Shown: positions 54,574-57,124 of the stretch, piece after piece
How positions within the stretch are numbered: position 1 is the stretch's first letter
Layout of the letters: each line of letters opens with the position of its first letter
Origin: Escherichia coli
GTDB taxonomy: Bacteria > Pseudomonadota > Gammaproteobacteria > Enterobacterales > Enterobacteriaceae
Length of the DNA stretch: 64,000 nt
NCBI RefSeq assembly: GCF_009931435.1
Contig: NZ_CP043414.1
Reading direction: 5' to 3' (one strand)
Program-made: the position numbers and the translations under genes
The notes under the pieces: generated by a model
What the model was told of the DNA's origin: nothing
Databases searched by the model: none
The model's input: only the letters and a program-made list of their open reading frames with translations

Positions 54574-55863
54574 ATGACGCGCCGTGCTATCGGGGTGAGT
54601 GAAAGACCGCCACTTTTACAAACAATCCCGCTTAGTTTGCAACATTTGTTCGCCATGTTTGGTGCAACCGTCCTGGTGCCCGTCTTATTTCATATTAACC
54701 CGGCGACTGTACTGTTATTCAATGGTATCGGGACGCTGCTGTATCTCTTCATCTGTAAAGGGAAAATCCCGGCTTATCTTGGTTCCAGCTTTGCCTTTAT
54801 TTCACCGGTATTGTTACTGTTGCCGTTAGGGTATGAAGTCGCGCTGGGCGGCTTTATTATGTGCGGCGTGCTGTTCTGCCTGGTTTCTTTTATCGTGAAG
54901 AAAGCGGGGACCGGCTGGCTGGACGTGCTGTTTCCACCTGCGGCAATGGGCGCAATCGTTGCCGTCATCGGTCTGGAGTTGGCGGGCGTAGCTGCCGGTA
55001 TGGCAGGTTTACTCCCGGCTGAAGGGCAAACGCCAGACTCCAAAACCATCATCATCTCCATTACCACGCTGGCAGTCACGGTTTTAGGTTCCGTGCTGTT
55101 TCGTGGTTTCCTGGCAATTATCCCGATTTTAATTGGCGTGCTGGTGGGCTACGCGCTCTCTTTCGCAATGGGAATTGTCGATACTACGCCGATTATTAAT
55201 GCTCACTGGTTTGCGCTGCCAACTCTCTATACGCCGCGCTTCGAGTGGTTTGCCATTCTGACTATTCTGCCAGCGGCGTTAGTGGTTATTGCCGAACACG
55301 TAGGGCACCTGGTGGTAACGGCTAATATCGTCAAAAAAGATCTGCTGCGCGATCCAGGTCTGCACCGTTCGATGTTTGCTAACGGCTTGTCGACCGTGAT
55401 CTCCGGCTTCTTTGGCTCCACGCCAAATACTACCTACGGGGAAAACATTGGCGTGATGGCGATCACCCGTGTTTACAGTACCTGGGTTATCGGCGGGGCG
55501 GCGATTTTCGCTATCCTGCTTTCCTGCGTCGGTAAACTGGCTGCTGCTATCCAGATGATCCCATTGCCGGTGATGGGCGGCGTTTCGCTGCTGCTTTATG
55601 GTGTTATCGGTGCTTCCGGTATTCGTGTTTTGATCGAATCGAAAGTGGATTACAACAAAGCACAGAACCTGATCCTGACTTCTGTCATTTTGATCATCGG
55701 TGTCAGTGGCGCGAAGGTAAACATCGGCGCGGCGGAGCTGAAAGGTATGGCGCTGGCGACCATCGTCGGTATCGGCTTAAGTTTGATCTTCAAACTGATT
55801 AGTGTGCTGCGCCCTGAAGAAGTGGTGCTGGACGCAGAAGACGCGGATATAACAGACAAATAA
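54574..55863 (+). CDS. uraA: Uracil:proton symporter
   Basis: ORF 54532-55863; ATG at 54574 gives [20 protein letters not shown]... (429 aa); polytopic NCS2-family membrane protein. Confidence 0.95.
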
Positions 55864-55957
55864 TGTACCGACCGGGCAGTGTTGCTGCCCGGTTCAAACA
55901 TCATGGGATTCTGTGGTAAACTTCTCGCGATTTTGTGAAATCCTGGTTGAGGTATCT

Positions 55958-56659
55958 CTGAACACACCGGCACAGCTCTCTTTGCCACTTTATCTTCCTG
56001 ACGACGAAACCTTTGCAAGTTTCTGGCCGGGGGATAACTCCTCTTTACTGGCCGCGCTGCAAAACGTGCTGCGTCAGGAACATAGCGGTTACATCTATCT
56101 CTGGGCACGCGAAGGCGCGGGGCGCAGCCATCTGCTGCACGCGGCTTGCGCGGAATTGTCGCAGCGTGGCGATGCGGTGGGCTATGTCCCGCTGGATAAA
56201 CGCACCTGGTTTGTTCCGGAAGTGCTCGACGGTATGGAGCATTTGTCGCTGGTCTGTATCGACAACATTGAGTGTATTGCAGGCGATGAGTTGTGGGAGA
56301 TGGCGATTTTCGATCTCTACAATCGAATTCTGGAATCGGGTAAAACACGGTTGTTAATCACCGGCGATCGTCCACCGCGGCAGTTGAATCTGGGATTACC
56401 GGATCTCGCGTCGCGACTCGACTGGGGGCAGATCTACAAATTGCAGCCTCTTTCTGATGAAGATAAGTTGCAGGCGCTACAGTTACGCGCGCGTTTGCGT
56501 GGTTTTGAACTGCCGGAAGATGTGGGGCGTTTCTTGCTGAAGCGGCTCGACAGAGAGATGCGCACGTTATTTATGACGTTGGATCAGTTGGATCGTGCGT
56601 CGATTACCGCGCAACGTAAGCTGACCATTCCGTTTGTGAAAGAAATTCTGAAACTGTAG
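55958..56659 (+). CDS. hda: DnaA-inactivating protein Hda (RIDA); probable non-AUG (CTG) start
   Basis: ORF 55913-56659 (GTG at 55913); product ...[19 protein letters not shown]...; AAA+ core; CTG at 55958 would give the 233-aa form I recall. Confidence 0.85.
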
Positions 56660-56674
56660 ACAAGACGTTTATCG

Positions 56675-56736
56675 TCGGATGCGCGCCCATCGTATTCGTA
56701 GGCCGGATAAGACGCGGCAAGCGTCGTATCCGGCAA
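56675..56736. repeat. REP element(s) downstream of hda (gccggataagacgcggcaagcgtcgtatccggca)
   Basis: Canonical REP palindrome read directly in the hda-yfgD intergenic region. Confidence 0.75.
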
Positions 56737-56764
56737 CGTGACTTAACTCGCGAAAGGGCGCATA

Positions 56765-57124
56765 TTAACCCACGATTTCCAGTACCTGCTCCGGTGGACG
56801 ACCAATCCGCGCTTTGCCATTGGCGACCACAATTGGGCGCTCCATTAGCTTCGGATTATCCACCATTGCCTGAATCAGCGCCTCTTCGCTAAGCGAACTG
56901 TCAGTCAGGTTCAGCTCTTTATAAAGATCCTCTTTCTGGCGCATCAACTCACGGGCACTATTCATCCCAAGCATTTTAAGCAAATCGCGCAGCGTTGCCG
57001 CATCGGCGGGTGTCTCAAGGTAGAGCACCACTTCTGGCTCCACGCCGTTTTCTTTCAGCAGGTTCAGCGTTTCCCGGCTCTTTGAACAGCGTGGATTATG
57101 GTAGATTTTTACCTGTTTGGTCAT
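56765..57124 (-). CDS. yfgD: ArsC-family protein YfgD (Spx/ArsC-like thioredoxin fold)
   Basis: 119-aa ORF MTKQVKIYHNPRCSKSRETL...; conserved N-terminal Cys. Confidence 0.85.
   Translation of the reverse strand: MTKQVKIYHNPRCSKSRETLNLLKENGVEPEVVLYLETPADAATLRDLLKMLGMNSARELMRQKEDLYKELNLTDSSLSEEALIQAMVDNPKLMERPIVVANGKARIGRPPEQVLEIVG

What the first reader, a model, noticed from the sequence alone, without database searches (positions are those of the whole stretch)
55913..55960. hda probably initiates at a non-AUG (CTG) codon
Seen in sequence: the long ORF opens with GTG at 55913 and there is no in-frame ATG near the conserved N-terminus (...[16 protein letters not shown]...). A CTG at 55958 would give a 233-aa protein, which is the length I recall for E. 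coli Hda and its reported CUG start. This is a known oddity that automated callers often mis-annotate as a 248-aa product.
Basis: partly seen in the sequence, partly recalled or inferred. Interest (0 to 1): 0.3.

Follow-up and report, generated by a model that had tools for sequence, protein, structure and literature searches.

The report
hda gene's known CTG start codon
The E. coli replication-control gene hda in this window does begin at a rare CTG start codon; this is already documented and annotated, and a comparison of 80 related species confirms it.

Summary
A 248-codon ORF opens at GTG 55913, there is no nearby in-frame ATG, and the in-frame CTG at 55958 gives a 233-aa product.

RefSeq starts the hda CDS exactly at the CTG. 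UniProt HDA_ECOLI is the 233-aa form. [quoted passage not shown]

My independent evidence comes from 81 Enterobacterales sequences:
- **Start codon:** the aligned codon is CTG in all 81. It is the only invariant codon among 126 invariant, degenerate amino-acid columns.
- **Ribosome-binding site:** GAGG(T) lies 5-7 nt upstream in all 81.
- **Codon periodicity:** it begins at the CTG.
- **No upstream alternative:** 33 species have no ATG, GTG or TTG between the nearest in-frame stop and the CTG.
it is in frame in only 4 of 81. It sits inside a conserved TGnTAnnnT block that looks like hda's extended -10 promoter element. That is an inference, because I found no transcription-start data.

The likely role is a weak start (CUG is about 1-2% of AUG) that keeps dosage-sensitive Hda scarce, at about 50 monomers per cell.

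Verdict: real, ordinary and already known, so low interest. The order-wide invariance of the CTG is a modest addition.

The parts
55958..56659 (+). hda coding sequence as it is most likely translated (233 codons plus TAG stop), encoding DnaA inactivator Hda
   Evidence: The RefSeq CDS maps exactly here. NCBIfam NF005982 scores 476.6 bits against a cutoff of 268. Residues are identical to PDB 5X06 Hda. 80 of 81 orthologues are ungapped 233-codon CDSs.
55958..55960 (+). CTG initiation codon
   Evidence: CTG in 81/81 Enterobacterales sequences. It is the only invariant codon among 126 invariant degenerate amino-acid columns, while the 24 other invariant Leu columns use 4-6 codons each. Literature.
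55949..55953 (+). Shine-Dalgarno sequence GAGGT, 4 nt before the CTG (5 nt counted from GAGG)
   Evidence: GAGG is 100% conserved and the following T 99%. The GAGG-to-CTG spacer is 5 nt in 74 species, 6 in 2 and 7 in 5. The spacer bases 55954-55956 are variable.
55973..55990 (+). Codons 6-11, QLSLPL, the beta-clamp-binding motif
   Evidence: Invariant at the amino-acid level with synonymous variation. [quoted passage not shown]
55913..55915 (+). GTG, the formerly and automatically annotated start of the 248-aa ORF; most likely not a start codon
   Evidence: An in-frame GTG at -15 occurs in only 4/81 species. The sequence between it and the CTG shows no codon periodicity, and the ORF is broken by indels or stops in other species. 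It lies within the conserved promoter-like block.
55912..55922 (+). Conserved block TGTGgTAAACT, a putative extended -10 promoter element (TGn + TAAACT) for hda. This is an inference.
   Evidence: Conservation is 0.80-0.99 except at the 'n' position (0.38) and hexamer position 3 (0.64). TGnTAnnnT is found 25-80 nt upstream of the CTG in 81/81 species. In 74 of the 81, where the block was placed correctly, its distance to the CTG is 34-41 nt. The block is also present in outgroup L085. The consensus scanner does not call a promoter here, and no TSS data was found.
55893..55898 (+). Weak -35-like hexamer TTCAAA, 18 nt upstream of the -10 hexamer. This is an inference.
   Evidence: TTC at 55893-55895 is 0.88-0.99 conserved, and it matches TTGACA at 4/6 by eye. 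It is below the scanner's threshold.
55929..55957 (+). Predicted 5' untranslated leader (about 29 nt), assuming transcription starts about 7 nt after the -10 hexamer. It includes the conserved U-rich block CGaTTTTgTG (55928-55937).
   Evidence: Conserved C-G at 55928/55929 (0.85/0.98) and the T-run at 55931-55934. The region is not more structured than shuffled sequence, z = +0.59. The TSS position is inferred, not measured.
55870..55894 (+). Stable GC-rich hairpin just after the uraA stop codon (55861-55863), with no U-tract
   Evidence: -20.4 kcal/mol, z = -4.03. The stem positions are moderately conserved and the loop is variable. The scanner does not call it an intrinsic terminator.

Best explanation
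This is the E. coli hda gene, lying between uraA and arsC/yfgD. Translation starts at the CTG at 55958. Initiator tRNA decodes it as fMet, positioned by the GAGGT Shine-Dalgarno 4 nt upstream, and the product is the 233-aa DnaA inactivator Hda. Its beta-clamp-binding motif QLSLPL sits at residues 6-11. The upstream GTG at 55913 is not the start. It lies in non-coding sequence that most likely forms the extended -10 element of hda's own promoter, and so upstream of the hda transcript (this step is inferred). Because CUG initiates at only a few percent of AUG efficiency, the codon probably serves to keep Hda very scarce. The invariance of CTG across Enterobacterales, when one base change would give TTG, GTG or ATG, indicates selection for this particular weak codon.
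For: Shown here:
- The RefSeq CDS starts at 55958, and the 233-aa sequence is HDA_ECOLI.
- EcoGene 3.0 reports experimental demonstration of the CTG start.
- The structure paper numbers Hda 1-233 with the motif at 6-11, and 5X06 is the MNTPAQ form.
- CTG is present in 81/81 species, and it is the only invariant codon of 126 invariant degenerate columns.
- GAGG is 100% conserved at 5-7 nt, with a variable spacer.
- Three-base periodicity starts at the CTG.
- 33/81 species have no canonical start between the upstream in-frame stop and the CTG, and 5 have TGA at -4.
- Upstream candidate starts are scattered and not conserved.
- In distant orthologues the clamp motif lies 1-12 residues from the N-terminus. 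It is at index 5 with the CTG start and index 20 with the GTG start.

From the literature:
- CUG initiates at about 1-2% of AUG (10.1101/063800).
- Hda is present at about 50 monomers per cell, and excess Hda is harmful (PMC5397184).

Inferred:
- The promoter assignment of TGTGnTAAACT.
- The dosage-limiting rationale.
Against: - The primary experimental paper (Su'etsugu 2008) was not readable here, so the direct proof is second-hand.
- I could retrieve no Ribo-seq initiation-site, N-terminomics or TSS data for hda.
- In E. coli itself the 248-codon ORF is open in about 99% of complete genomes. Within-species data therefore cannot exclude some initiation at GTG on uraA read-through transcripts.
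- The promoter scanner finds no sigma-70 promoter at its threshold.
- The 81 sequences share ancestry. The other codons of the same gene on the same tree serve as an internal control for that.
Confidence: 0.93

Rival explanations
1. Translation starts at the GTG at 55913 and yields a 248-aa Hda, the original and automated annotation.
For: The GTG is the first canonical start of the ORF. The ORF is open in 5394 of 5426 E. coli records, which match the region exactly. 248-aa entries exist in GenBank, IMG, ENA and Logan.
Against: There is no good Shine-Dalgarno before the GTG; the upstream sequence is TTCAAACATCATGGGATTCT. An in-frame GTG at -15 occurs in only 4/81 species. The 15 upstream codons show no periodicity and are broken by stops or indels elsewhere. 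The GTG lies in a conserved TGnTAnnnT block that falls in all three frames relative to the CTG. Curated databases and the literature reject this start. It would also place the clamp motif unusually far from the N-terminus.
Confidence: 0.03
2. Dual initiation: CTG is the main start, but a minor 248-aa isoform is made from GTG on transcripts reading through from uraA.
For: The uraA-hda hairpin has no U-tract and is not called a terminator, so read-through mRNA containing the GTG is plausible. GUG is intrinsically a stronger start codon than CUG. The ORF is open in E. coli and E. albertii.
Against: There is no SD for the GTG and no conservation of the extension outside Escherichia. No report of a long isoform turned up in the searchable literature.
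Confidence: 0.08
3. Translation starts at a different in-frame codon: the TTG at codon 9 (55982, giving 225 aa) or the other CTG at 55943 (giving 238 aa).
For: Some public annotations start at the TTG, giving 225-aa [11 protein letters not shown]... forms. The TTG at codon 9 is the first downstream canonical start in 26 species. The CTG at 55943 is in frame.
Against: Codons 2-8 are conserved as protein with synonymous changes, so they are translated. A TTG-9 start would delete half of the clamp-binding motif. Codon 9 is CTG in 48/80 species. The codon at -5 is CTG in only 12/81, lacks an SD and is poorly conserved at 0.43-0.52.
Confidence: 0.01

Closest known systems
E. coli K-12 hda (b2496; UniProt P69931 HDA_ECOLI; RefSeq NP_416991.2 / WP_001307333.1)
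   Same: Same gene. The start region is identical in sequence to MG1655. The synteny upp-uraA-hda / arsC(yfgD)-bepA is the same. The 233-aa product is identical, and so is the documented CTG start.
   Different: Nothing in the feature itself. The window's strain is closest to strain 2017-02-2CC (99.8% over 901 nt) rather than K-12 (98.6%), and it differs downstream of hda in the REP-like intergenic region.
Other E. coli genes with non-AUG/GUG/UUG starts: infC and pcnB (AUU), yfjD (CTG)
   Same: A near-cognate start codon gives low initiation efficiency. EcoGene lists yfjD as the second confirmed CTG start, and Hecht et al. list infC and pcnB.
   Different: For infC the AUU start underlies IF3 autoregulation (my own knowledge). 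No such regulatory loop is shown for hda. Here the evidence is only strict codon conservation plus the known dosage sensitivity of Hda.
Hda orthologues outside Enterobacterales (e.g. Shewanella amazonensis Hda, PDB 3BOS; metagenomic relatives P0122, P0130, P0131, P0153)
   Same: The same family and a short N-terminal leader before the Q-L-x-L-x-L clamp motif. Several use weak starts (GTG, GTG, TTG, GTG) with an in-frame stop just upstream.
   Different: None of the 8 sampled uses CTG, and 3 of the 4 more distant ones use ATG. The CTG appears specific to Enterobacterales.

Membership tests
Hda, DnaA regulatory inactivator (NCBIfam NF005982 / TIGR03420) | Scores above the curated equivalog cut-offs | tested here: met
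   NF005982 scores 476.6 bits against 268; TIGR03420 scores 281.4 against 194.8.
Hda, DnaA regulatory inactivator (NCBIfam NF005982 / TIGR03420) | N-terminal beta-clamp-binding motif QL[SD]LPL close to the N-terminus | tested here: met
   QLSLPL at residues 6-11 of the CTG-initiated protein. It is invariant in 20 orthologues and identified as the motif in PMC5397184.
Hda, DnaA regulatory inactivator (NCBIfam NF005982 / TIGR03420) | AAA+ domain related to DnaA domain III, with the Box VII arginine finger (Arg153) | tested here: met
   R153 is invariant. The protein hits DnaA models and structures over the AAA+ region. Arg153 is named the arginine finger in PMC5397184.
Hda, DnaA regulatory inactivator (NCBIfam NF005982 / TIGR03420) | Stimulates clamp-dependent DnaA-ATP hydrolysis (RIDA) | not testable with these tools
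   Biochemical activity. It is inferred from sequence identity to the characterised E. coli protein.
Bacterial genes initiating at CUG | Shine-Dalgarno at functional spacing upstream of the proposed codon | tested here: met
   GAGGT at 55949-55953, with 5 nt from GAGG to the CTG. It is 100% conserved.
Bacterial genes initiating at CUG | No conserved canonical start that could serve instead | tested here: met
   33/81 species have none upstream within the ORF. The others are scattered at -2, -5, -8, -15, -24 and beyond. There is no conserved downstream alternative either.
Bacterial genes initiating at CUG | Codon conserved at the nucleotide level beyond what the amino acid requires, with coding periodicity beginning there | tested here: met
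   81/81 are CTG, and it is the only invariant codon of 126. The periodicity onset is at 55958.
Bacterial genes initiating at CUG | Direct experimental proof (N-terminal sequence, start-codon mutagenesis) | not testable with these tools
   Reported by EcoGene 3.0 citing Su'etsugu 2008. The primary paper is not held.
Sigma-70 extended -10 promoter (for block 55912-55922) | TGn immediately upstream of a TAnnnT hexamer | tested here: met
   TG at 55914-15, n at 55916, TAAACT at 55917-22. TGnTAnnnT is present in 81/81 species.
Sigma-70 extended -10 promoter (for block 55912-55922) | Overall match to the promoter consensus | tested here: inconclusive
   By eye it matches 8/12 plus the TG. The scanner requires 9/12 and reports none.
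Sigma-70 extended -10 promoter (for block 55912-55922) | A transcription start mapped about 7 nt downstream | not tested
   No TSS table containing hda could be retrieved.

The most novel reading that the evidence does not exclude
The CTG start of hda is not a K-12 curiosity. It is an order-wide trait under strict selection in Enterobacterales: 81/81 species, never TTG, GTG or ATG, each of which is one mutation away. It acts as a fixed translational throttle on a dosage-sensitive replication regulator, and possibly makes Hda synthesis responsive to IF3 or initiation fidelity. The long-annotated GTG 'start' is actually part of hda's conserved extended -10 promoter. As a corollary, the many 235-aa Hda annotations that start at the GTG inside GAGGTG (and the 235-position NCBIfam model) are two codons too long.
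Probability: 0.45. Interest if true: 0.35.

Novelty: already known. Interest (0 to 1): 0.15.

Why it matters
For annotation, it confirms that the 233-aa CTG-initiated form is the right one. The 248-, 235- and 225-aa forms still circulating in automated gene calls are mis-starts. The 225-aa form even removes part of the clamp-binding motif.

Biologically, Hda sets the DnaA-ATP/ADP balance and is harmful when over- or under-produced. A start codon worth about 1-2% of AUG, held invariant across a whole bacterial order, is a plausible hard-wired dosage control. That can be tested simply by swapping the codon. None of this changes what is already known about E. coli hda.

Tried and rejected
- **Primary paper:** Su'etsugu 2008 is not held by PMC id or DOI.
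- **TSS data for hda:** I looked in the Cappable-seq, Rend-seq, dRNA-seq, Shigella TSS and ROSE supplements. Nothing was held or matched, and no paper mentions an 'hda promoter'.
- **Initiation-site and N-terminomics evidence:** the TRAINSPOTTER supplements and the Ribo-RET and INRI-seq texts do not mention hda.
- **Consensus promoter/terminator scan of 55780-56020:** it found nothing, so the promoter reading rests on conservation alone.
- **DnaA-box reading of TGTGGTAAA** (reverse complement TGTGNAWAA): rejected as the main explanation. No species matches perfectly, 33 have one mismatch and 41 have two. The -10 invariants TGnTAnnnT are met in 81/81, and conservation extends to the hexamer's final CT.
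- **The 1-nt insertion in E. coli L003** that puts the GTG out of frame: I first took it as within-species evidence, but no complete E. coli genome carries it, so I set it aside.
- **RNA structure masking the start region:** none beyond chance.

Full report
**1. What is in the window.**
Positions 55700-56800 carry the end of uraA (stop at 55861-55863) and a 94-nt intergenic region. Then comes an ORF that opens at GTG 55913 and ends at TAG 56657-56659 (248 codons). arsC/yfgD and bepA follow on the minus strand.

The ORF frame reads GTG GTA AAC TTC TCG CGA TTT TGT GAA ATC CTG GTT GAG GTA TCT CTG AAC ACA CCG... The CTG at 55958 is therefore in frame, 15 codons after the GTG, and 55958-56659 is 702 nt (233 codons plus stop).

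The GTG is the only ATG/GTG/TTG between the upstream in-frame stop (36 codons before the CTG) and the CTG. The first in-frame ATG is codon 107 of the 248-codon ORF.

A CTG in frame near an N-terminus means nothing on its own, since CTG is a very common Leu codon. A second in-frame CTG lies at 55943.

**2. Identity of the gene.**
The region matches 5425 of 5426 complete E. coli genomes at 97.7-99.8% identity, annotated 'hda: DnaA inactivator Hda' next to uraA.

The product scores 476.6 bits on NCBIfam NF005982 (cutoff 268) and 281.4 on TIGR03420 (cutoff 194.8). From the CTG onward it is residue-for-residue identical to the crystallised E. coli Hda, 5X06.

**3. What curated sources say about the start.**
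- RefSeq/PGAP places the hda CDS at locus positions that map exactly to window 55958-56659, as WP_001307333.1.
- In MG1655 the CDS is 2618075..2618776 (complement), NP_416991.2, also 702 nt. The start region of the window is identical to MG1655.
- The exact 233-aa sequence is UniProt HDA_ECOLI and occurs on at least 1000 contigs.
[quoted passage not shown] I could not read the 2008 paper itself. The experimental proof is therefore cited second-hand.

**4. Independent comparative test.**
I collected hda loci from 80 species-representative genomes across Enterobacterales, from Escherichia, Citrobacter and Klebsiella out to Yersinia, Serratia, Erwinia, Pantoea, Pectobacterium, Xenorhabdus and Photorhabdus. 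The results are as follows.

- **(a) The start codon.** The codon aligned to 55958 is CTG in 81 of 81 sequences and never ATG, GTG or TTG.
- **(b) An internal control.** In 80 ungapped 233-codon CDSs there are 126 columns with an invariant amino acid that has degenerate codons. Exactly one of them has an invariant codon, and it is this CTG. The 24 other invariant Leu columns each use 4-6 synonymous codons, with the most uniform at 71/80. Those columns share the same tree, so shared ancestry does not explain the result. The constraint is on the nucleotides, not on leucine.
- **(c) The ribosome-binding site.** GAGG at 55949-55952 is 100% conserved and the following T 99%. The three spacer bases 55954-55956 are variable. 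The GAGG-to-CTG spacer is 5 nt in 74 species, 6 in 2 and 7 in 5. The apparently conserved 'EV' seen in over-extended protein calls is simply GAG-GTn, the Shine-Dalgarno read in frame.
- **(d) Periodicity.** Three-base periodicity of conservation begins at the CTG and is absent upstream.
- **(e) No upstream alternative.** 33 of 81 species have no canonical start at all between the nearest upstream in-frame stop and the CTG. Five (four Serratia species and Yersinia aleksiciae) have an in-frame TGA four codons upstream. The remaining candidates are scattered at -2, -5, -8, -15, -24 and beyond.
- **(f) No downstream alternative.** None is conserved. The TTG at codon 9 is CTG in 48/80 species, and starting there would remove half of the clamp motif.
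- **(g) Position of the clamp motif.** In 150 distant family representatives the clamp motif begins 1-12 residues from the called N-terminus, most often at 3. The CTG start puts E. coli's at index 5. The GTG start would put it at index 20, which is seen only in E. coli-derived entries.

**5. Limits of the comparative evidence.**
Within E. coli, 5394 of 5426 records match the 60-nt start region exactly, so the 248-codon ORF is open in essentially every strain. One draft genome (L003) has a 1-nt insertion that frameshifts the GTG. No complete genome shares it, so I give it no weight.

Sequence alone cannot exclude a minor long isoform made from uraA read-through transcripts.

**6. What the GTG probably is.**
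The alignment shows a second conserved block at 55912-55922, TGTGgTAAACT. The 'n' position (55916, 0.38) and hexamer position 3 (55919, 0.64) are variable, and the rest is 0.80-0.99 conserved.

Species variants (TAAACT, TAGACT, TACACT, TAGAAT, TAATAT) keep T1, A2 and T6 and the upstream TG. TGnTAnnnT is present 25-80 nt upstream of the CTG in 81/81. Together with the scattered in-frame stops, that variable spacing means it is not coding.

This is the signature of an extended -10 promoter element. There is a weak -35-like TTCAAA at 55893-55898 and a conserved C-G at 55928/55929, where transcription would start. The predicted leader is about 29 nt.

The same block (CGTGTTACACT) appears 38 nt upstream of the GTG start of an outgroup hda whose upstream neighbour is a different gene.

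This step is inference:
- The consensus scanner finds no promoter at its 9/12 threshold.
- I found no TSS data.
- A DnaA-box reading (TGTGNAWAA) fits less well: no species matches perfectly, 33 have one mismatch and 41 have two.

**7. Mechanism and rationale.**
Shown or documented: a strong, well-spaced SD and an unstructured initiation region (z = +0.59) position the 30S subunit on a near-cognate CUG.

From the literature:
- CUG initiates at about 1-2% of AUG in E. coli reporters (bioRxiv 10.1101/063800).
- Hda is present at about 50 monomers per cell.
- Elevated Hda delays initiation, induces SOS or impairs viability, while its loss causes over-initiation (PMC5397184).

Inferred: the CTG is retained as a translational throttle on a dosage-sensitive regulator. 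This fits the observation that a single transition to TTG, a better start, is never seen in 81 species.

Outside Enterobacterales the four nearest relatives I sampled start at GTG, GTG, TTG and GTG. Four more distant ones start at ATG, ATG, ATG and GTG. The CTG therefore looks specific to Enterobacterales, within a family that often uses weak starts. Eight loci is a small sample and only indicative.

**8. Verdict.**

The additions from this analysis are modest:
- The order-wide, codon-level invariance of the CTG.
- The likely promoter identity of the old GTG 'start'.
- The note that 235-, 248- and 225-aa annotations of this family are probable mis-starts.

Interest is low.

Noticed in passing
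window 55912-55922: Conserved block TGTGnTAAACT (TGnTAnnnT in 81/81 species, and in one outgroup with a different upstream gene). It looks like an extended -10 promoter for hda and contains the formerly annotated GTG start. It also resembles a DnaA box with 1-2 mismatches. No TSS data found.
   Followed up: partly
window 55928-55937: Conserved U-rich block CGnTTTTnTG in the predicted hda 5' leader (T-run 0.84-0.96 conserved). Its function is unexplained; it might be a ribosomal protein S1-binding enhancer that compensates for the weak start.
   Followed up: no
window 55870-55894: Stable GC-rich hairpin right after the uraA stop (-20.4 kcal/mol, z = -4.0), with conserved stems but no U-tract, and not called a terminator. 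It leaves open how much uraA transcription reads into hda.
   Followed up: partly
loci L046-L081 (e.g. L047, L051, L076), codon -2 relative to the CTG: In 21/81 species the codon two before the CTG is GTG, inside the GAGGTG Shine-Dalgarno. Many public Hda entries (235 aa, 'MLLNTPAQ...') and the 235-position NCBIfam model NF005982 start there. This is probably a two-codon over-extension, since that GTG overlaps the SD itself.
   Followed up: partly
proteins P0070, P0111, P0112, P0125: Some public annotations start Hda at the TTG of codon 9 (225 aa, '[11 protein letters not shown]...'), which removes half of the beta-clamp-binding motif. This is typical of genomes with no canonical start upstream.
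   Followed up: no
L084-L091 (non-Enterobacterales hda loci): Start codons of eight outgroup hda genes are GTG, GTG, TTG, GTG, ATG, ATG, ATG, GTG. That is 5 of 8 non-ATG against roughly 18% genome-wide, which suggests a family-wide tendency to weak starts. The sample is too small to conclude.
   Followed up: partly
bioRxiv 10.1101/063800: A widely cited survey of start codons states that only infC and pcnB are confirmed non-canonical starts in E. coli, overlooking hda (and yfjD). The hda CTG is documented but not universally known.
   Followed up: no
window ~56675-56745: REP-like palindromic sequence (GCCGGATAAGACGCG...CGTCGTATCCGGC) between hda and arsC/yfgD. Most E. coli genomes stop aligning with the window near 56686, and the hda-arsC spacer is 105 nt in the closest strain against 137 nt in a K-12-like strain. 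The intergenic repeat content varies between strains.
   Followed up: no
L003 1448-1508 (E. coli SCPM-O-B-8794 draft): A single-base insertion (ATCCCTGG against ATCCTGG) between the GTG and the CTG frameshifts the 248-codon ORF. It is absent from all 5426 complete E. coli genomes, so it is either a rare allele or an assembly error.
   Followed up: yes
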